Positions 8,967 through 16,791 of a stretch of DNA of 52,705 nucleotides are shown here, piece by piece. This DNA comes from a virus. Its lineage: Duplodnaviria > Heunggongvirae > Uroviricota > Caudoviricetes. A program made the position numbers and the translations under genes. The DNA lies in the IMG/VR virus record IMGVR_UViG_3300035042_000139; one strand, written 5' to 3'. The notes under the pieces are model-generated. The model ran no database searches, was not told the origin of the DNA, and worked only from the letters and a program-made list of their open reading frames with translations. Numbering within the stretch: position 1 is the first letter of the stretch; each line of letters opens with the position of its first letter.

Positions 8967-9149
8967 ATGAAAAAGGCAGTTGTAATTTGCAGAACAGAGG
9001 ACAAAAAGCATCATTTAATTTTAGAAGAAGGAGAAGTTGTTAGAGTTGTAGGAAGAAGCAAAAATAAAGTAAAAGTAAATACAGAAGATGGTAAAACATT
9101 ATGGTGTAACTTCAGAAATTTAAGTGAAAAATTAGTATTTAGGGGTTAA
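8967..9149 (+). CDS. small beta-rich hypothetical protein
   Basis: Strong RBS AGGAGG; SH3-like pattern (L.EGEVVRVV...VKV..EDGK..W). Confidence 0.65.
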   Translation: MKKAVVICRTEDKKHHLILEEGEVVRVVGRSKNKVKVNTEDGKTLWCNFRNLSEKLVFRG

Positions 9150-9216
9150 GAACAAATTTAAAGGGGTTAAAAGGCCATATTTATTATGGCCAGCAATTAT
9201 ATTTATTTTATATTAC

Positions 9217-9245
9217 TTGAAAAGTGGAGTTAAGTGTGGTATAAT
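9217..9245 (+). promoter_or_regulatory. sigmaA-type promoter upstream of the RNA array
   Basis: TTGAAA(9217-9222), 17 bp, TG at 9237-9238, TATAAT(9240-9245); first RNA starts at 9265. Confidence 0.85.
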
Positions 9246-9264
9246 AAACTTAACAGATAAACAA

Positions 9265-9410
9265 GTCATTGGTGGCGGAATAAGTAGACGCTATAATGGT
9301 AAGGCATTCGGTGGGAAACATAATAACCAGAGGGGCATATGCTTATACATTTAAAAGCAGCTTTGCAACATGCGAATGTTCATGTGAGGTGTAAATCCTC
9401 ACCCATGACA
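9265..9410 (+). ncRNA. tRNA-like RNA with a large structured insert replacing the anticodon arm
   Basis: Acceptor GTCATTGG/CCCATGAC (one mismatch), Leu-type D region TGGCGGAATAAGTAGACGC, T arm TGAGG-TGTAAAT-CCTCA (non-TTC loop), insert closed by GGCATTCG/CGAATGTT. Confidence 0.7.
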
Positions 9411-9420
9411 TTATATATAT

Positions 9421-9466
9421 GCCGGTTCGGGAAACTACAGGTTAGTTACCTGCCCTGCCGGCTCCA
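9421..9466 (+). ncRNA. 46-nt hairpin RNA ending in TCCA (minihelix-like)
   Basis: GCCGGT/GCCGGC, GGG/CCC and CAGGT/ACCTG stems, 3' TCCA. Confidence 0.55.
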
Positions 9467-9475
9467 AAATTTAAA

Positions 9476-9560
9476 GGAAGAGTGTCCGAGTGGTTTAAGG
9501 AGACAGTTTGCTAAACTGTTACCGACAGGTTCAGGGGTTCAAATCCCCTCTCTTCCTCCA
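9476..9560 (+). tRNA. tRNA-Ser(GCT)
   Basis: GGAAGAG/CTCTTCC acceptor, ACAGT-TTGCTAA-ACTGT anticodon arm, short variable arm ACC-GACA-GGT, AGGGG-TTCAAAT-CCCCT, encoded CCA; discriminator T is atypical. Confidence 0.9.
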
Positions 9561-9566
9561 TTTTTT

Positions 9567-9681
9567 CGGGAGATAGCTCAGCAGGCTAGAGCAGCTAAAA
9601 TATGTCTTGTATAAGGTATTAACAGCAATCACATCCCATTAAAGGAGCGTGTCGCAGGTTCGAATCCTGCTCTCCCGGTCA
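9567..9681 (+). ncRNA. CAGCAA-motif tRNA-like RNA 1 (Pro-like body)
   Basis: CGGGAGA/TCTCCCG acceptor, intact D and T arms; insert ATGTCTT-GTAT-AAGGTAT-T-AACAGCAA; residual TCC-CATTAAA-GGA. Confidence 0.85.
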
Positions 9682-9687
9682 TTTTTA

Positions 9688-9904
9688 GTCGCAGTGATAG
9701 TTTTTGGCAATTTAAACTATCTTCAAATAAATGCGACAGAATTAAGATTCCTCTACAAAATTGCCAGAGGGCTTAATTCAAAATTAATCTGTCAGCAACA
9801 TGTAAACAGCCTGGCTACAATATTAAAAACAAACTGCCAGGCTTAGGAAATACATGGAAACAACTGCCGAGCTCTGTGGGCTAGCTGTTGCGACGGGTTA
9901 ATTT
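9688..9904 (+). ncRNA. structured ncRNA(s): kissing-hairpin pair plus multi-stem domain
   Basis: GTCGCA/TGCGAC, GATAGTTT/AAACTATC, GAATTAAG/CTTAATTC, CCTCT/AGAGG; loops GGCAATTT and AAATTGCC are complementary; AAATTAATCTGTC/GACGGGTTAATTT encloses AGCCTGGC/GCCAGGCT. Confidence 0.75.
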
Positions 9905-9906
9905 AC

Positions 9907-10025
9907 GGTGAGGTAGCCAAGATGGAAAGGCTCCGGCGCAAAAAGAAAGTGTGACTAGTTTAGTCACCAACAGCAATTCTTCTATGTCAAGCCGGGATTC
10001 GCGGGTTCAACTCCCGTCCTCACCA
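9907..10025 (+). ncRNA. CAGCAA-motif tRNA-like RNA 2 (Asp-like)
   Basis: GGTGAGG/CCTCACC acceptor; anticodon stem CCGGC/GCCGG enclosing GTGACTA-GTT-TAGTCAC-C-AACAGCAA and residual AT-GTC-AA; T arm GCGGG-TTCAACT-CCCGT. Confidence 0.85.
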
Positions 10026-10037
10026 ATTACAATTTTT

Positions 10038-10155
10038 CGAAGGGTAGCTCAACTGGTAGAGCAGCTAAAATATATGCTTAGTTTTAAGCGTTAACAGCAA
10101 TCAATTTTCCTTGAGGAGGAGCTTGCTGCAGGTTCAAATCCTGCCCCTTCGACCA
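10038..10155 (+). ncRNA. CAGCAA-motif tRNA-like RNA 3 (Pro-like body, GAG loop)
   Basis: CGAAGGG/CCCTTCG-A-CCA; insert ATGCTTA-GTTT-TAAGCGT-T-AACAGCAA; residual TCC-TTGAGGA-GGA. Confidence 0.85.
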
Positions 10156-10163
10156 TTTTTTAA

Positions 10164-10286
10164 GGAGAGATTCTCCTAATGGCAAAGGTACCGGCCAAAA
10201 TATGTTTAGATTAAACATCAACAGCAAAAAAAGTGAAAAGCCGGCGGTCGATGACCATGGTGGTTCGAATCCACCACTCTCCACCA
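10164..10286 (+). ncRNA. CAGCAA-motif tRNA-like RNA 4 (Ser-like body)
   Basis: GGAGAG/CTCTCC-A-CCA; CCGGC/GCCGG enclosing ATGTTTA-GAT-TAAACAT-C-AACAGCAA...GTGAAAA; variable arm GGTC-GAT-GACC; T arm GGTGG-TTCGAAT-CCACC. Confidence 0.85.
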
Positions 10287-10323
10287 ACTTTAGGAATTAA
10301 AGATTAATTTTTTGTAATTTTTA

Positions 10324-10402
10324 AAGACGGCACACAGCAACCAAACTATTATATAATAAAAGACGAATAAGGCTGACACTTTTTTATCCCTGAGCCGTCT
10401 TG
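10324..10402 (+). ncRNA. stand-alone CAGCAA stem-loop unit A
   Basis: AAGACGGC-ACA-CAGCAA...GCCGTCTT-G; weak internal AAGG-CTGACAC-TTTT hairpin. Confidence 0.8.
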
Positions 10403-10433
10403 TTATTTAGACTTAGAACTTAGATAGATTACA

Positions 10434-10568
10434 TACTGTCGGACTGACAGGAATTTACGCTTTTGGAGAGAGCATAAGACCTAACTTAATCTGATTAAAT
10501 AATTAGCTTTAAGTAGGCAATTCTCGTTGAAAAAAGAATCCCCGCAGGCTTGCCTCGGGGTAGGTCAA
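10434..10568 (+). mobile_element. orphan IS200/IS605-family right end / TnpB omegaRNA scaffold
   Basis: CTGTC-GGACT-GACAG hairpin, GGAATTTACGCTTTTGGAGA, GAAT directly before subterminal hairpin CCCCGCAGG-CTTG-CCTCGGGG, terminal TCAA; no tnpA/tnpB adjacent. Confidence 0.75.
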
Positions 10569-10684
10569 TAAAGGGCGATATCTTGGTGTCAGTTTATCTT
10601 TATGATTTTGTTCATTATAATATATTCTTTCGAACTTGCCGGTGCTTTTAAACCCGGTTAATTTTGTATAAAGAGGTGTAAAAT

Positions 10685-11506
10685 TTGTTTATAGCAGAGA
10701 TTGGTATTAATCATAATGGAAATTTAGAATATGCATATGATTTAATAGATATGGCTTATAAAGCTGGAGCAGATGTTGTTAAATTCCAGAAAAGAAATCC
10801 AAATAAATGTGTACCTGAAAACCAGTGGTATAAAAAGAAAGAAACACCGTGGGGCAAGATGGATTATATTGACTATAAGCACAAGATGGAGTTTGGTTAT
10901 AGTGAATATACAGCAATTAATGCTTACTGTAAAAAACTTGGGATAAAATGGACTGCAAGTGTTTGGGATGTCCAATCACTTAATTTTATAACTGAATTTG
11001 ATGTGCCTTTTATAAAGATTGCAAGTGCCTCAATCACGAATATGTTACTCCTGGAAGAAATCTGGGAAAAAGACATTCCTGTAGTTATGTCAACTGGAAT
11101 GAGTACAGAAGATGAAGTAGATAGGGCAGTATATACACTAGAAGAATTGGGAAAGAACTTAACAATTTTGCACTGCAACAGTAGTTATCCTGCAGCAGAA
11201 GATGAACTGGATTTAAATGTAATAAAAACTTTAAAAAATAAATATACAAAACATAAAATAGGCTACAGTGGACATGAAAGAGGAATTCAACCGACAATAG
11301 CAGCTAAAGTTTTAGGAGCTGAGATAATTGAAAGACATATCACTCTAGATAAGGATATGTGGGGCAGCGACCACAGTGCAAGTCTAGAATACAAAGAGCT
11401 AAAAGAGCTTATCGACAATCTTAACAGAGTTGATAACTGGCTCGGGAGTGATAATATTAAAGTTTATGAATCTGAAGAAAAAGTAAAAGAAAAACTTAGA
11501 AAATAA
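10685..11506 (+). CDS. N-acetylneuraminate synthase family protein (NeuB/SpsE), TIM barrel only
   Basis: IAEIGINHNG, ADVVKFQKR, IKIASA, MSTGMST, LHCNSSYP, GYSGHE, IERHITLD..MWGSDHSASLE; lacks the C-terminal SAF/AFP domain. Confidence 0.93.
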   Translation: MFIAEIGINHNGNLEYAYDLIDMAYKAGADVVKFQKRNPNKCVPENQWYKKKETPWGKMDYIDYKHKMEFGYSEYTAINAYCKKLGIKWTASVWDVQSLNFITEFDVPFIKIASASITNMLLLEEIWEKDIPVVMSTGMSTEDEVDRAVYTLEELGKNLTILHCNSSYPAAEDELDLNVIKTLKNKYTKHKIGYSGHERGIQPTIAAKVLGAEIIERHITLDKDMWGSDHSASLEYKELKELIDNLNRVDNWLGSDNIKVYESEEKVKEKLRK

Positions 11507-11514
11507 AAATCTTA

Positions 11515-11579
11515 AAGGCGCCAACAGCAAACTTACTAAATCAAACTTCCAATTTGAATCCAATAGTAATGGTGCCTTG
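11515..11579 (+). ncRNA. stand-alone CAGCAA stem-loop unit B carrying a Gly(TCC)-type anticodon stem-loop
   Basis: AAGGCGCC-AA-CAGCAA...GGTGCCTT-G; internal TTACTA/TAGTAA enclosing TCAAA-CTTCCAA-TTTGA. Confidence 0.85.
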
Positions 11580-11586
11580 TATATAT

Positions 11587-11716
11587 GGCAGTATAGCTCA
11601 ACTGGTAGAGAGCTCAAAAGTTAACGGGCATAGGCCGGCGGGCCCTTACAGCAAACTACAACTAACAATTCTATGTCAAAGAAAAGACGCAGGTTCAAAT
11701 CCTGCTGCTGCCACCA
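11587..11716 (+). ncRNA. CAGCAA-motif tRNA-like RNA 5 (GTC loop)
   Basis: GGCAGTA/TGCTGCC-A-CCA, D region TAGCTCAACTGGTAGAG, insert GGGC..GCCC-TTA-CAGCAA, TTCT-ATGTCAA-AGAA, T arm GCAGG-TTCAAAT-CCTGC. Confidence 0.85.
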
Positions 11717-11758
11717 TTAGCCGGCTTTAATTTACTAACCAACACTCCTTTCAAATTA

Positions 11759-11827
11759 AAGACAGATGCAGCAACCAATTCTTATATCAAGGTATGATAA
11801 AACCCGCGAAATGCGGATACTGTCTTG
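11759..11827 (+). ncRNA. stand-alone CAGCAA stem-loop unit C
   Basis: AAGACAG-ATG-CAGCAA...CTGTCTT-G; internal TATCA/TGATA and CCGC/GCGG hairpins. Confidence 0.8.
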
Positions 11828-11850
11828 TAGTAAAGTCTTAGGAAAATTTT

Positions 11851-11906
11851 TAGGCACAATCAGCAATCAAATCAAGGACTGTAAATCCAACAAAATATGT
11901 GCCTAG
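11851..11906 (+). ncRNA. stand-alone CAGCAA stem-loop unit D carrying a Tyr(GTA)-type anticodon stem-loop
   Basis: TAGGCACA-AT-CAGCAA...TGTGCCTA-G; internal GGA-CTGTAAA-TCC. Confidence 0.85.
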
Positions 11907-11933
11907 TATAAAAATAAAAGGGGGATTATTAAT

Positions 11934-13439
11934 ATGTCAAATAAATTTTTAGACGCAATGGAAGATAAAGTTAATTACACAGCAACAGAAAATGGTGCAA
12001 CAGCAAAATATACAACTAAGGATAACCTACTCGATTTCTTTGCTCAGGTAGGAGCCTTAAGAAACAGAAATAAAGAAGATATTATAAGGCTTTTTGACAA
12101 GGCCTTAACAGAAGATGACCTTCTAGCATTAAAAACTCTTTTTTATGCCAGAAATATCAGGGGTGGGCTAGGAGAAAGAAGAATATTTAGAGTTATTCTA
12201 AAATATCTGACACAGGTAAAACCTGAAATAATTCTAAAAAACTTAGAACACATACCTCATTATGGTAGATGGGACGATTTATATGCCTTATTTGATACAA
12301 GACTTGAAGGCTATGCAGCAAACTTTATGAAAGCCCAGTTCTTTAAGGATATCAATTCTGAAAAACCAAGCCTATTAGCAAAATGGCTTAAATCAGAAAA
12401 TGCAAGCTCTGACGAAACAAAAAGACTTGCCAAAAAAACCAGAAAACATTTTGAGATGACAGCAAGAGGATATAGAAAAACACTTTCTAAGCTAAGAAAG
12501 AAAATAGGTGTTGTCGAAAGAAAAATGTCGAATAATGACTGGGAAGATATTGACTACTCATCTGTTCCTTCAAGAGCGCAGATGATTTACAATAATGCTT
12601 TTGAAAGACATGACCCTGAAGGCTACCATCAATACATTGAAAATGTTAAATCGGGAGAGGATAAAATTAATGCTTCAACATTATATCCTTATGATTTAGT
12701 AAGAAAAGTTATCGGTGATGGTTGGGGCCATTCAGTTTCTGAAAGTGAGAGAAACGTTTTAAATGAGCAGTGGAAAGCATTACCTGATTATATCAATGAT
12801 AAAAATGAAAACTCTATTTGTGTTGTAGATACTTCAGGTTCTATGATGAGCTCAGATGGATTACCGCTTCATATTGCACTTTCATTAGGGCTTTATATGG
12901 CAGAAAGAAACTCGGGGCCATTTAAAGATAGGTTTATTACCTTCTCTGCCAGTCCTGATTTAGTAAAAGTAGAAGGCAGTGATTTTGTACAGAAAATTAA
13001 AAACATGAAAAGAGCTCATTGGGATATGAACACCGATATCGAAGCTGTATTTAATCTTATTTTAGATACTGCAATCGAAAACCATCTCGACCAGGACGAG
13101 ATACCTCAGAAATTATATATTATTTCTGATATGGAATTTGACCAGTGTACAGGTAGGGGTTATGGATTTAATTCACAAAATAAAGTAACTAAAACACTTT
13201 TTGAAAAGTTAAAAGAATCATTCAAACATTATGGCTACAAAATGCCGGATTTAGTCTTCTGGAATGTTGAAGCAAGAAATGAAGTTTTTCAGTTTGACAA
13301 AGACGAGAGAGGATTTCAGCTTGTAAGTGGAGCTTCTCCAGTTGTTTTTGAGCACACAATGAAAGGTGAGTTTGTTTCCGCCTACGACTTGATGCTCGAT
13401 GTAATCACAGACGAACAGTACGATAGAATTACAGTTTAA
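11934..13439 (+). CDS. DUF2828-family protein (TROVE/Ro60-like helical domain plus C-terminal vWA domain)
   Basis: TENGA, LDFF, ARNIRGGLGER, YGRWDDL, AKWL, VPSRA, LYPY; MIDAS VVDTSGSM, FITFS, ISDMEFD, VFWN, VSGAS. Confidence 0.85.
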   Translation: MSNKFLDAMEDKVNYTATENGATAKYTTKDNLLDFFAQVGALRNRNKEDIIRLFDKALTEDDLLALKTLFYARNIRGGLGERRIFRVILKYLTQVKPEIILKNLEHIPHYGRWDDLYALFDTRLEGYAANFMKAQFFKDINSEKPSLLAKWLKSENASSDETKRLAKKTRKHFEMTARGYRKTLSKLRKKIGVVERKMSNNDWEDIDYSSVPSRAQMIYNNAFERHDPEGYHQYIENVKSGEDKINASTLYPYDLVRKVIGDGWGHSVSESERNVLNEQWKALPDYINDKNENSICVVDTSGSMMSSDGLPLHIALSLGLYMAERNSGPFKDRFITFSASPDLVKVEGSDFVQKIKNMKRAHWDMNTDIEAVFNLILDTAIENHLDQDEIPQKLYIISDMEFDQCTGRGYGFNSQNKVTKTLFEKLKESFKHYGYKMPDLVFWNVEARNEVFQFDKDERGFQLVSGASPVVFEHTMKGEFVSAYDLMLDVITDEQYDRITV

Positions 13440-13959: not shown

Positions 13960-14877
13960 ATGGATAAAGATAAGTTAGAGGAATTAAGAGAATACAATAA
14001 AATTTATATTTTAGGCAGTAGTAGCAATCAAGAAATTACAGATTATAAAGAGGATGAAATTGTAATTGAAGAAAAAATTGACGGCAGTAACTTCAGGTTC
14101 TGGAGAGAAGGAGATAGGATTGTATATAGTTCACGGAAAACTGAGGATGTCAGACCTCGTGATGGATGGGGCAAACAGATTGAATACCTAAATGAAAAGC
14201 TTGATGTAAATGCTCTTGGCAGAGATATTATTTATGTCGGAGAGGCAATGAAAAAACACATAGTAAATTATGATTTTGATAATTACCCATCATTTATAGG
14301 GTTTGACCTTCTGGATAAAGAAACTGGGATGCCACTTGATTATAAGGTTGCCAGAGATACTTTTGAAAGTTTGGGTTTAGAATTTGTAAATATCTTATTT
14401 GAGGGAACAATGGAAGAATATCTTGAGATGGACAAAGATAAACTTTTAGAAATTTCTAAGTACAATTCAAAAAAGCCTGAAGGTTATGTTATTAAAAACT
14501 ACAGCAGGTTAAGCCAGTACGATGAGCCTCTATTTGCCAAAGTTTTAAATGATGAGTATTTGGAAAGACAAAAAGCTAAAGCTAAAAAGCCAAAGCCTAA
14601 AGAAACAGACACTCCTTTAGCAGTTGAGCTTTATGTAAATGAGGCGAGAATTAAAAAGATGATAGCTAAAATGGTTGTTGATGAAGGACATAAACTTGAA
14701 AGAACGCTAATGCATAAGCTTATCCCGAGAGTTATCAAGGATTTTTTAAGAGAAAATATTCTTGAAATCTATGAGGATAATAGAATAAAAGATGTAAACT
14801 TTAATATTCTACACAAAGAAGTTCCAAAAAGATGTATTAAAGTTTTGGATAAGATGATTGAAAGTAATGCATTCTAA
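13960..14877 (+). CDS. ATP-dependent RNA ligase (Rnl2-like nucleotidyltransferase)
   Basis: Motif I EEKIDGSN, Ia YSSRK, III YVGE, IIIa FIGFD, IV PEGYVIK, V FAK. Confidence 0.85.
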   Translation: MDKDKLEELREYNKIYILGSSSNQEITDYKEDEIVIEEKIDGSNFRFWREGDRIVYSSRKTEDVRPRDGWGKQIEYLNEKLDVNALGRDIIYVGEAMKKHIVNYDFDNYPSFIGFDLLDKETGMPLDYKVARDTFESLGLEFVNILFEGTMEEYLEMDKDKLLEISKYNSKKPEGYVIKNYSRLSQYDEPLFAKVLNDEYLERQKAKAKKPKPKETDTPLAVELYVNEARIKKMIAKMVVDEGHKLERTLMHKLIPRVIKDFLRENILEIYEDNRIKDVNFNILHKEVPKRCIKVLDKMIESNAF

Positions 14878-16314: not shown

Positions 16315-16791
16315 ATGAGTACTATTTTTTTAGATATAGATGGAGTTTTAAACTCAACTAAATCTATAGAAGAAAATTATCTTAAAGGAAATAAAGAAGA
16401 TGCAGATAAAATTTTTATACCTCAATCTGTATTCTTAATAAACATGCTTACAAGTGTAAAGAGTGCAGATGTAGTAATCTCAAGTACGTGGCGTTACAAC
16501 ATGGAAAAGGTTATAGAAGTTTTCAAAAAAAACAATCTAAAAACAAGAAATATAGTTGGTAGAACACCATTTTTGGAATCAACAAGGGGTGCAGAAATCA
16601 AAAAGTATTTAAAGTTAAATAAAAATATAGAAGACTTTATAATAATTGACGACGATAGAGATATGGAGCCATTTTTAGACAGGTTAATACATGTAAAAAG
16701 AAAAACAGGTTTTGATAACCATGACTACATTAAATCTTTAAAAATGTTAGGTGGTAAAAATGTATCACAAAAAATGTCCAAATTGCAATAA
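16315..16791 (+). CDS. HAD-superfamily phosphatase, Swiss-Army-Knife RNA-repair type
   Basis: FLDIDGVLN, VVISSTWR, RGAEI..YL, FIIIDDDRDM. Confidence 0.85.
   Translation: MSTIFLDIDGVLNSTKSIEENYLKGNKEDADKIFIPQSVFLINMLTSVKSADVVISSTWRYNMEKVIEVFKKNNLKTRNIVGRTPFLESTRGAEIKKYLKLNKNIEDFIIIDDDRDMEPFLDRLIHVKRKTGFDNHDYIKSLKMLGGKNVSQKMSKLQ

What the first reader, a model, noticed from the sequence alone, without database searches (positions are those of the whole stretch)
10324..11906. Stand-alone units display isolated, canonical-looking anticodon stem-loops
Unit B holds TCAAA-CT TCC AA-TTTGA (11541-11557; tRNA-Gly loop). Unit D holds GGA-CT GTA AA-TCC (11876-11888; tRNA-Tyr loop with its usual flanking pairs). 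Unit A holds a weaker AAGG-CT GAC AC-TTTT (Val-like). Unit C has no clear one. The three loops fit the 7-nt Y-U-NNN-R-N rule. Known: several anti-phage effectors and toxins cut specific tRNA anticodon loops (PrrC, PARIS AriB, VapC, colicin E5), and retron PtuAB depletes tRNA-Tyr. Inference: a repertoire of anticodon decoys, array-like in logic (constant handle, variable specificity).
Basis: partly seen in the sequence, partly recalled or inferred. Interest (0 to 1): 0.85.

Follow-up and report, generated by a model that had tools for sequence, protein, structure and literature searches.

The report
Anticodon-arm mimics on Ro60-like partner RNAs
Two of the four small stand-alone RNA units in this jumbo-phage tRNA region really do display a copy of a tRNA anticodon arm, and the same design recurs in distant phages next to a Ro60-like protein gene, so these look like partner RNAs that present tRNA parts, perhaps as baits in the fight over tRNA cleavage.

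Summary
Unit B (11515-11578) has a 5-bp stem with loop CUUCCAA at 11541-11557. Unit D (11850-11906) has loop CUGUAAA at 11876-11888, on only 3 bp. Unit A's loop is weak and unsupported. Unit C has none.

All four units share a handle: a 7-9 bp terminal stem followed by single-stranded ACAGCAA in a fixed register. This handle accompanies the DUF2828 gene (11934-13439), whose model folds like Ro60, in many distant phages. This scan had already noted the handle family on other DNA, in at least 200 genomes. I found no paper describing it.

New here:
- Among 99 non-redundant short-cargo units from 59 other loci, 15 carry a hairpin with loop CUNNNAA. The reverse complement gives 0 and shuffles give 0.43.
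- CUNNNAA is the commonest of all 7-nt loop classes.
- The stems are exactly 5 bp in 20 of 27 cases.
- The loop starts 12-19 nt after the motif.
- Position 34 is G or U.

Best reading: Y-RNA-like partner RNAs whose variable module mimics a tRNA part (anticodon arm, D arm, T arm or a near-whole tRNA). The decoy function is plausible but untested. I class it as a new variant of a known kind.

The parts
9217..9245 (+). Promoter-like site (TTGAAA, 17 nt spacer, TG-extended TATAAT) at the head of the non-coding RNA array
   Evidence: 11 of 12 consensus matches, the best site in 9100-12000. Consensus match only.
9476..9560 (+). Ordinary tRNA-Ser (GCU). It is the only standard tRNA that ARAGORN calls in the window.
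9567..9678 (+). T1: tRNA body with a handle-bearing insert (hairpin followed by ACAGCAA) on the 5' side of the anticodon arm
   Evidence: Rfam tRNA 43.7 bits with a 49-nt insert; reading of the sequence.
9907..10025 (+). T2: tRNA body with a 53-nt handle-bearing insert
   Evidence: Rfam tRNA 44.3 bits.
10038..10152 (+). T3: tRNA body with a handle-bearing insert. After the insert is removed, it reads as tRNA-Leu (GAG).
   Evidence: Rfam tRNA 47.4 bits. In the deletion scan, ARAGORN calls Leu GAG in 50 variants, but other calls compete.
10165..10288 (+). T4: tRNA-like body with a long variable arm, a CCA end and a handle-bearing insert
   Evidence: Read by eye. ARAGORN calls Phe GAA only after 10196-10232 is deleted. 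Rfam does not call it.
10324..10401 (+). Stand-alone unit A: 8-bp terminal stem, ACAGCAA, 53-nt cargo. Its claimed Val-like loop at 10369-10383 is weak.
   Evidence: Not a match to model R1 at E <= 0.01.
11515..11578 (+). Stand-alone unit B: 9-bp terminal stem, ACAGCAA, and an anticodon-arm mimic at 11541-11557 (5 bp, loop CUUCCAA, anticodon UCC as in tRNA-Gly)
   Evidence: present in the minimum-energy fold. R1 58.5 bits, E 2.4e-12. It was one of the 19 units R1 was built from, so this score is partly by construction.
11587..11713 (+). T5: tRNA body with a 71-nt handle-bearing insert, followed by TTCT/ATGTCAA/AGAA (GUC, Asp-like, with A at position 32)
   Evidence: Rfam tRNA 43.2 bits; deletion scan.
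11759..11826 (+). Stand-alone unit C: 7-bp terminal stem, (G)CAGCAA, and a cargo with two small hairpins. No anticodon-type loop.
11850..11906 (+). Stand-alone unit D: 9-bp terminal stem, (U)CAGCAA, and a weak anticodon-arm mimic at 11876-11888 (3 bp, loop CUGUAAA, anticodon GUA as in tRNA-Tyr). It ends 28 nt before the DUF2828 start codon.
   Evidence: R1 48.7 bits, E 1.2e-9; also a seed sequence of R1. The same loop sits on 4-6 bp stems in L053, L107 and L131.
11934..13439 (+). DUF2828/DUF7788 protein, a Ro60-like ring (TROVE-like HEAT repeats plus a vWA domain with DxSxS). It is the presumed protein partner of the handle.
   Evidence: Pfam and PHROG. Model pLDDT 80. Full-length Foldseek matches to Ro60 structures 9kop, 9l5y, 2nvo, 1yvp, 1yvr. 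D299, S301 and S303 are invariant.
13960..14877 (+). RNA ligase (PF09414), local RNA-repair context
16315..16791 (+). HAD phosphatase of the 'Swiss Army Knife' RNA-repair type (PF18143)

Best explanation
Units A-D are small RNAs cut out of a tRNA-array transcript. They belong to a widespread family defined by a handle: a 7-9 bp stem joining the two ends, with a conserved A-G-R-C at its base, followed directly by single-stranded ACAGCAA and a G-poor linker.

The handle is most likely the binding site of the Ro60-like DUF2828 protein encoded 28 nt downstream. That would make these the Y-RNA-like partners of that protein. This step is inferred from co-occurrence and from the protein's fold.

The rest of each RNA is a swappable module that copies a piece of tRNA. 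In B, and more weakly in D, the module is an anticodon arm: a 5-bp stem and a 7-nt loop C32-U33-NNN-A37-A38, placed 12-19 nt after the motif. This architecture is shown here, and it is under selection: the stems covary while the loop frame stays fixed.

My proposed working is that the ring protein holds the handle and presents the anticodon arm to a protein that reads anticodon loops. The most likely target is a host tRNA-cleaving defence nuclease, with the RNA acting as a competing bait. This last step is inference only.

Rough odds:
- Partner RNAs of DUF2828: 0.8.
- Genuine, selected anticodon-arm mimicry: 0.85 for B, 0.6 for D.
- Bait or decoy for anticodon-reading host nucleases: 0.3.

The overall confidence given (0.45) is for the statement as a whole, weighted toward its structural parts.
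For: Handle and its link to the gene:
- ACAGCAA occurs 310 times on the DUF2828 strand and 61 times on the other strand in 1.1 Mb of 80 loci. It clusters in the 500 nt before the gene.
- The register is fixed: A at -9, G at -8, R at -7, C at -6, C at -4, with a G-poor tail.
- The same units occur beside DUF2828 in Bacillus phage FADO, Salmonella phage FO1a (Felix O1 species), Listeria phage AG20 and Mycobacterium phage Samty.
- All 9 handle-stem pairs covary.
- R1 gives 127 matches at E <= 0.01 in 1.3 Mb, nearly all on the gene's strand.

The protein is Ro60-like.

Link to known Y RNAs:
- Some members carry a T arm, an acceptor hairpin and a D arm.
- One of these scores 37.9 bits on Rfam YrlA.

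Anticodon-arm mimicry:
- Enrichment of CUNNNAA.
- CUNNNAA is the top 7-nt loop class, 15 units against 4 for the next.
- Stems are 5 bp in 20 of 27; position 34 is G in 12, U in 11, A in 3 and C in 1.
- Three further cases turned up in loci fetched by a different route: L170 7897 with CUUUGAA, L170 4608 with CUCAUAA, L168 9487 with CUGUUAA.

Context:
- RNA ligase and a HAD_SAK_2 phosphatase lie in the window.
- RtcB, an RNA ligase and an HD phosphohydrolase are annotated downstream in the Listeria phage.
- Acb2/Tad1-like and Tad2-like genes lie within about 8 kb in two other loci.
- A Ro60-like protein of coliphage Bas63 was reported to counter the ppl defence (PMC11482910).
- The displayed anticodons include UUU, GUU and GUA, which belong to tRNAs that published defence nucleases target (AriB: PMC12409363; Retron-Eco7: abstract).
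Against: - There is no evidence here that the units are expressed, processed or bound by the protein.
- Only about 15% of short-cargo units show a canonical loop. In this window only B is solid.
- The stems of the mimics vary freely, so only the loop frame is copied. Nucleases that read the stem, base modifications or the whole L-shape would not be fooled.
- The displayed anticodon matches a tRNA gene in the same locus in 10 of 26 cases, which shows no clear logic.
- The RNA-repair neighbours are not general: tblastn with this window's ligase, HAD and PhoH finds no homologue at E <= 1e-5 in 163 other loci.
- The ascertainment of A3/R1 favours hairpins. The enrichment tests carry the weight, not the covariation of the inner helix.
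Confidence: 0.45

Rival explanations
1. Adapter rather than decoy. As in the Ro60/Y RNA/PNPase particle, the variable module tethers the ring protein to a partner enzyme. Here that would be an enzyme that recognises anticodon loops, such as a modification or repair enzyme. The particle would then work on damaged or unmodified tRNAs rather than soaking up a nuclease.
For: - Known Y RNAs act as tethers, and a phage Ro60 with its Y-like RNAs binds host PNPase (PMC4201824; PMC12135203).
- An RNA ligase and a repair-type phosphatase lie downstream.
- Several displayed anticodons end in U36 or A36 before A37. From general knowledge, these are the classes that receive t6A or i6A at position 37.
- The conserved MIDAS-type DxSxS fits a protein-protein contact.
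Against: - The repair genes are not conserved neighbours.
- No candidate partner enzyme has been identified.
- The diversity of displayed anticodons and of other tRNA parts argues against a single partner.
Confidence: 0.2
2. The anticodon-type hairpins are leftovers of tRNA genes from which these RNAs evolved inside tRNA arrays. They serve only as a generic structural hairpin, and the loop sequence has no role.
For: - The units sit in tRNA arrays.
- Other members keep D, T or near-whole tRNA parts.
- Most short units have non-anticodon hairpins.
Against: - The loop frame C-U-NNN-A-A, the 5-bp stem length and the position after the motif are kept across phages whose DUF2828 proteins share only 40-50% identity, while the stem sequences change.
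- Decay would erase these features first.
Confidence: 0.12
3. The units are not trans-acting RNAs. They are cis signals of the tRNA array, such as processing or termination hairpins, or DNA-level repeats used in recombination of tRNA cassettes.
For: - They are inverted repeats lying between tRNA genes.
- A TnpB element has inserted next to unit A in the close relative.
Against: - The motif is strongly strand-specific and tied to one protein family.
- Pairing is maintained through G-U pairs and compensatory changes.
- Members with permuted tRNA domains match a known small-RNA family.
- No T-runs follow the stems.
Confidence: 0.05

Closest known systems
Bacterial and phage Y RNAs of the YrlA type with Ro60/Rsr (Rfam RF02553; Chen et al. 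2014, PMC4201824)
   Same: - Small RNAs encoded beside, and on the same strand as, a Ro60-fold ring protein.
- The two ends are joined in a stem that carries the presumed protein site.
- The rest of the RNA mimics tRNA.
- Some family members have the same T arm, acceptor hairpin and D arm order, and one scores 37.9 bits on RF02553.
   Different: - The handle is ACAGCAA after the stem, not the GNCGAAN0-1G / CGAA motif.
- The protein is the DUF2828 branch.
- Units A-D have no T or D arm and do not match RF02553.
- B and D copy the anticodon arm, a part that YrlA replaces with its protein-binding stem.
Thermus phage phiLo Ro60 with Yrl1 and Yrl2 (PMC12135203; PDB 9KOP, 9L5Y)
   Same: - A phage-encoded Ro60 with Y-like RNAs encoded just upstream.
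- It is the best structural match of the DUF2828 model.
   Different: - Yrl1 and Yrl2 were picked by their CGAA motif, and no tRNA-like or anticodon module is reported for them.
- Foldseek sequence identity between the DUF2828 model and this structure is only about 15%.
Class I RNAs of dictyostelid amoebae (Rfam RF01414; Kjellin et al. 2021, PMC7919456)
   Same: - 42-65 nt RNAs with a 6-bp stem joining the ends.
- An unstructured conserved 11-nt motif lies right after the 5' strand, and the remainder is variable.
- The positions the paper reports as invariant (T3, C6, C9, A10, A11) fit nnTnnCAGCAA-type spacing.
   Different: - They are eukaryotic and have their own promoters.
- No Ro60-like partner is reported for them.
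- Rfam does not report RF01414 on the window's units even at E <= 10.
- The likeness was a lead from earlier notes of this scan. I checked it only against the paper's text.
Phage tRNAs that bypass tRNA-cleaving defences (T5 tRNA-Lys/Thr/Asn against PARIS AriB, PMC12409363; T5 tRNA-Tyr against Retron-Eco7, PMC11555353)
   Same: - A phage-encoded RNA countermeasure centred on the anticodon arm of specific tRNAs.
- The anticodons UUU, GUU and GUA recur among the mimics.
- Six mimics carry U36-A-A-U-C, the sequence around the AriB cleavage site.
   Different: - Those are whole, functional replacement tRNAs.
- The units here lack acceptor, D and T arms and cannot be charged.
- The overlap in anticodons and the UAAUC motif is suggestive only.

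Membership tests
ACAGCAA-handle RNAs linked to DUF2828 (unnamed; noted before by this scan) | Terminal stem of 6-10 bp joining the 5' and 3' ends, maintained by compensatory changes | tested here: met
   A has 8 bp, B 9 bp, C 7 bp and D 9 bp. All 9 pairs covary across 19 units.
ACAGCAA-handle RNAs linked to DUF2828 (unnamed; noted before by this scan) | (A)CAGCAA directly after the 5' strand, in fixed register with A-G-R at -9 to -7 | tested here: met
   A and B have ACAGCAA, C has GCAGCAA and D has UCAGCAA.
ACAGCAA-handle RNAs linked to DUF2828 (unnamed; noted before by this scan) | Same-strand neighbourhood of a DUF2828 gene | tested here: met
   Unit D ends 28 nt before the start codon at 11934. 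The general association is shown.
ACAGCAA-handle RNAs linked to DUF2828 (unnamed; noted before by this scan) | Physical binding of the handle by the DUF2828 protein | not testable with these tools
   Needs a pull-down or a gel-shift experiment.
Anticodon-arm mimic (subclass proposed here) | 5-bp stem closing a 7-nt loop | tested here: inconclusive
   Met by B (5 bp). D has 3 bp. A has 4 pairs, two of them G-U. C has none. In relatives, 20 of 27 stems are exactly 5 bp.
Anticodon-arm mimic (subclass proposed here) | Loop frame C32-U33-NNN-A37-A38, starting 12-19 nt after the motif | tested here: met
   B has CUUCCAA at offset 15 and D has CUGUAAA at offset 12. A (CUGACAC) has C at position 38 and lies at a much larger offset.
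Y RNA, YrlA type (RF02553) | Score at or above the Rfam gathering threshold (69 bits) | tested here: not met
   Units A-D give no match. A mycobacteriophage member reaches 37.9 bits.
Y RNA, YrlA type (RF02553) | GNCGAAN0-1G / CGAA motif in the Ro60-binding stem | tested here: not met
   The handle logo shows ACAGCAA instead. The motif is as defined in PMC4201824.
Y RNA, YrlA type (RF02553) | Encoded next to a Ro60-fold protein | tested here: met
tRNA (RF00005) | Acceptor stem, D arm and T arm | tested here: not met
   Neither ARAGORN nor Rfam calls a tRNA in A-D. The cargos of 39-53 nt are too short.
Class I RNA (RF01414) | Match to the Rfam model | tested here: not met
   Not reported at E <= 10 on 11500-11915.

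The most novel reading that the evidence does not exclude
Phages use a Ro60-like ring protein with a modular RNA repertoire: one constant handle fused to interchangeable tRNA parts, including bare anticodon arms of chosen specificity. This would work as an RNA-based counter-defence that baits, blocks or reports host nucleases that cut tRNA anticodon loops. The set of displayed anticodons would then be a readable record of which tRNAs the host's defences attack.
Probability: 0.3. Interest if true: 0.85.

Novelty: new variant of a known kind. Interest (0 to 1): 0.62.

Why it matters
Ro60 and its Y RNAs are conserved from bacteria to humans. What the tRNA-like parts of bacterial Y RNAs are for is still open.

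This phage branch has a different handle. Its RNAs reduce the mimicry to single tRNA domains, including precise anticodon arms. That narrows the question to one testable interaction: who reads the displayed loop?

tRNA anticodon cleavage has become a major theme in anti-phage defence (PrrC, PARIS, Retron-Eco7, Septu, Cas13a). A Ro60-like phage protein has already been reported to counter one defence system.

If the loops are baits, this would be a new RNA-based class of counter-defence. It could be tested in cultured phages of Bacillus subtilis and Mycobacterium smegmatis.

If the loops are tethers, they would point to the enzymes that this particle recruits.

Tried and rejected
- Ordinary tRNAs: rejected, because the units lack acceptor, D and T arms.
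- Any Rfam family for the units: none found, even at E <= 10.
- DNA similarity to deposited phages: none.
I replaced it with CUNNNAA, taken from the window's own B and D loops and tested on other loci.
- A rule linking displayed anticodons to the tRNA genes of the same locus: none seen (10 of 26 coincide).
- General synteny with RNA-repair genes: not found by tblastn with this window's ligase, HAD and PhoH in 163 loci, with DUF2828 as a positive control. Repair genes are local to some phages only.
- Unique placement of the insert in the five tRNA-bodied units: the deletion scan gives competing anticodon calls, so only T3 (Leu GAG) and T5 (Asp GUC) are reasonably clear.
- Search of the Protein Data Bank by sequence profile: no Ro60 match. 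The relation shows only at the fold level.
- Papers naming DUF2828 with phage, or YrlA with phage: none describes these RNAs.
- Supplements of PMC4201824: not held, so I could not check which phage RNAs that study listed.
Full report
**What is in the window**

All genes run on the + strand. The closest relative is a 203.6-kb viral contig (L001/L004) with 92-98% identity, so this is a jumbo phage.

A strong promoter-like site at 9217-9245 heads a 2.7-kb stretch that is almost free of coding sequence. This stretch holds:
- one ordinary tRNA-Ser;
- five tRNA bodies, each with a 50-70 nt insert at the anticodon arm (Rfam tRNA 43-47 bits for four of them);
- four stand-alone hairpin units.

The region is interrupted by a NeuB-like ORF and by the remnant of an IS605-family element. 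Directly downstream lie a DUF2828/DUF7788 protein (11934-13439), an RNA ligase (13960-14877), a repair-type HAD phosphatase (16315-16791) and PhoH.

**The observation**

The exact unit limits are A 10324-10401, B 11515-11578, C 11759-11826 and D 11850-11906.

- Unit B has TCAAA/CTTCCAA/TTTGA at 11541-11557, five Watson-Crick pairs. The hairpin appears in the unconstrained fold.
- Unit D has GGA/CTGTAAA/TCC at 11876-11888, only three pairs. It is not in the fold.
- Unit A's AAGG/CTGACAC/TTTT has two G-U pairs and is not in the fold.
- Unit C has no such loop.

Shuffles of the four cargos give P of about 0.0006-0.005, depending on the criterion. Those tests were chosen after the fact.

**What the units are**

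Every unit has the same handle: a 7-9 bp stem joining its ends, followed at once by (A)CAGCAA.

The same units lie in the tRNA array upstream of the DUF2828 gene of Bacillus phage FADO. Its protein is only 44% identical to the window's.

In 80 viral contigs whose DUF2828 proteins are mostly 40-53% identical to the window's (plus its 96%-identical near-twin):
- ACAGCAA occurs 310 times on the gene's strand and 61 times on the other;
- it piles up in the 500 nt before the gene.

A stem-plus-motif scan yields hundreds of units. Their logo has a fixed register: A at -9, G at -8, R at -7, C at -6, C at -4, then ACAGCAA, then a G-poor tail.

Units also flank the gene in Salmonella phage FO1a (Felix O1 species), Listeria phage AG20 and Mycobacterium phage Samty.

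**The protein**

The protein model (pLDDT 80) matches Ro60 structures over its full length. The best match is the Ro60 of Thermus phage phiLo. A conserved DxSxS sits in its vWA domain.

**Link to known Y RNAs**

Some family members carry a T arm, an acceptor-like hairpin and a D arm in the permuted order of YrlA. One of them scores 37.9 bits on Rfam YrlA, below the threshold of 69.

The handle differs from the CGAA-type Ro60 site of known Y RNAs.

I conclude that A-D are Y-RNA-like partner RNAs of a Ro60-like protein. The link rests on co-occurrence and fold. Binding itself has not been shown.

**Earlier notes of this scan**

Earlier notes report the same handle-plus-DUF2828 pairing in at least 200 other genomes. 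They also report a likeness to dictyostelid Class I RNAs.

I checked the Class I paper. Its description fits: a 6-bp terminal stem, an 11-nt unstructured motif, and invariant T3, C6, C9, A10 and A11. However, Rfam does not report that family on these units.

I tabulated cargo hairpins in homologous units, leaving out the window and its near-twin.

- The loose rule YUNNNRN fails as a statistic: 52 units match it, and 50 do on the reverse complement.
- The stricter frame seen in B and D, CUNNNAA on a stem of at least 4 bp, is found in 27 of 196 non-redundant units. The reverse complement gives 1 and shuffles give 1.15.
- Among cargos of at most 60 nt, which are too short to hide a real tRNA, it is found in 15 of 99 units from 59 loci. 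The reverse complement gives 0. Dinucleotide shuffles give a mean of 0.43 and a maximum of 3 in 500.
- CUNNNAA is the commonest of all two-plus-two loop frames, 15 units against 4 for the runner-up.

An unforced alignment of 19 such units lines up the handle, the motif and the inner hairpin. Both helices covary, though the inner one was partly selected for.

A covariance model built from this alignment gives:
- 127 matches in the first 1.3 Mb;
- 12 matches in a second set of 69 loci from a more distant protein clade;
- matches in the window to B and D only.

Among the 126 distinct matches, 27 have CUNNNA(A/C) loops:
- the stem is exactly 5 bp in 20 of them;
- the loop starts 12-19 nt after the motif in most;
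- position 34 is G (12) or U (11), as in real bacterial tRNAs;
- recurrent anticodons are GUU, UUU, GCU, GUA, UGA, GGU and UCC.

Two loci fetched by a different route add three more cases.

Unit D's loop recurs on 4-6 bp stems in L053, L107 and L131. Unit B's loop recurs in L037, and a near-identical AUUCCAA loop with the same UCC anticodon occurs in L063.

B is a clear member of this subclass, D a weak one, and A is probably chance.

**Anticodon arms are one cargo among several**

Other cargo types also occur:
- D-arm-like hairpins (TTCA/ATTGGTA/TGAA and variants);
- lone T arms;
- D arm, anticodon arm and T arm together, without an acceptor stem;
- YrlA-like permuted domains.

In the window's five tRNA-bodied units, the handle appears as a closed hairpin followed by ACAGCAA. 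It sits just 5' of what looks like a retained anticodon loop. T3 reads as Leu GAG and T5 as Asp GUC once the insert is removed, though the deletion scan is ambiguous.

The common theme is a constant handle fused to a piece of tRNA.

**How it may work**

Shown here:
- the architecture, its conservation and its strand-specific link to a Ro60-fold protein;
- precise, selected mimicry of the anticodon arm in a subclass.

Inferred:
- the ring protein binds the handle;
- the displayed arm is read by another protein.

I favour a bait for host nucleases that cut anticodon loops, at about 0.3. My reasons:
- The displayed anticodons overlap the published targets of such nucleases. Six mimics carry the U36-A-A-U-C context of the AriB site.
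- DUF2828 genes sit near anti-defence genes in two loci.
- A Ro60-like protein of coliphage Bas63 was reported to counter a defence system. Its authors guessed that neighbouring 'tRNA' genes might be Y RNAs.

A tether that recruits an anticodon-reading enzyme, by analogy with the Ro60/Y RNA/PNPase particle, is the main rival, at about 0.2.

Evidence against over-reading:
- There are no expression or binding data.
- Most units lack such loops.
- Only the loop frame is copied, not the stems.
- There is no clear relation to the phage's own tRNA set.
- The repair genes are not conserved neighbours.

**Verdict**

The 'constant handle, variable cargo' reading is supported. The decoy function remains open.

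The thing is a new variant of a known kind: Ro60-type particles with tRNA-mimicking partner RNAs. It differs in having its own handle and in reducing the mimicry to a bare anticodon arm. I found no description of this in Rfam or in the papers searched.

Noticed in passing
window 10402-10590; L001 2262-3491: The close relative L001 carries an intact tnpB gene (OrfB_IS605, Cas12f1-like TNB domain and HTH; 373 aa) inserted right after unit A. The window lacks about 1.2 kb, including the whole gene, but keeps the non-coding stretch that follows it in L001. This fits an orphan right end or omega-RNA region of an IS605-family element.
   Followed up: yes
window 10685-11506: A NeuB-family (sialic or pseudaminic acid synthase-like) ORF of 273 aa sits inside the non-coding RNA array. 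It has no PHROG match and no homologue in the 163 related loci.
   Followed up: partly
window 9567-10288 and 11587-11713: The five tRNA-bodied units carry the handle as a closed hairpin followed by ACAGCAA, placed 5' of a retained anticodon-like loop. T3 reads as GC[insert]TCC/TTGAGGA/GGAGC (Leu GAG). T5 has TTCT/ATGTCAA/AGAA (Asp GUC, with A at position 32). T1 has CATTAAA, which would be a UUA anticodon with A at position 33. Four of them end in CCA.
   Followed up: partly
L043 3816-3875, L015 6570-6636, L017 6561-6624, L019 6837-6887, L010 10802-10866, L035 4353-4413: A second recurrent cargo class resembles a tRNA D arm: TTCA/ATTGG(TA)/TGAA and variants carrying the GG of the D loop.
   Followed up: partly
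L027, L046 (ARAGORN); L025 2125-2305: Some related phages carry tRNA genes with a CUA anticodon (amber-reading), which hints at stop-codon recoding in those phages.
   Followed up: no
L168 12140-12511; L170 16698-16955: Genes with Acb2/Tad1-hairpin and Tad2-like Pfam hits (known anti-defence families) lie about 3-7 kb downstream of DUF2828 in two unrelated contigs. L168 looks like an SPbeta-type phage of Clostridium perfringens (YonK, YonJ and YonG hits).
   Followed up: no
L055 872-992 (- strand): Two anticodon-arm-type units (CUGGUAA and CUACGAA loops) lie on the strand opposite to DUF2828. They are the only clear minus-strand matches of the model.
   Followed up: no
window 9265-9466 and 9688-9779: Further structured non-coding pieces of the array lack the handle. 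Other first-reader notes describe a tRNA-shell RNA, a CCA-ended minihelix and paired hairpins with complementary loops. I did not examine them.
   Followed up: no
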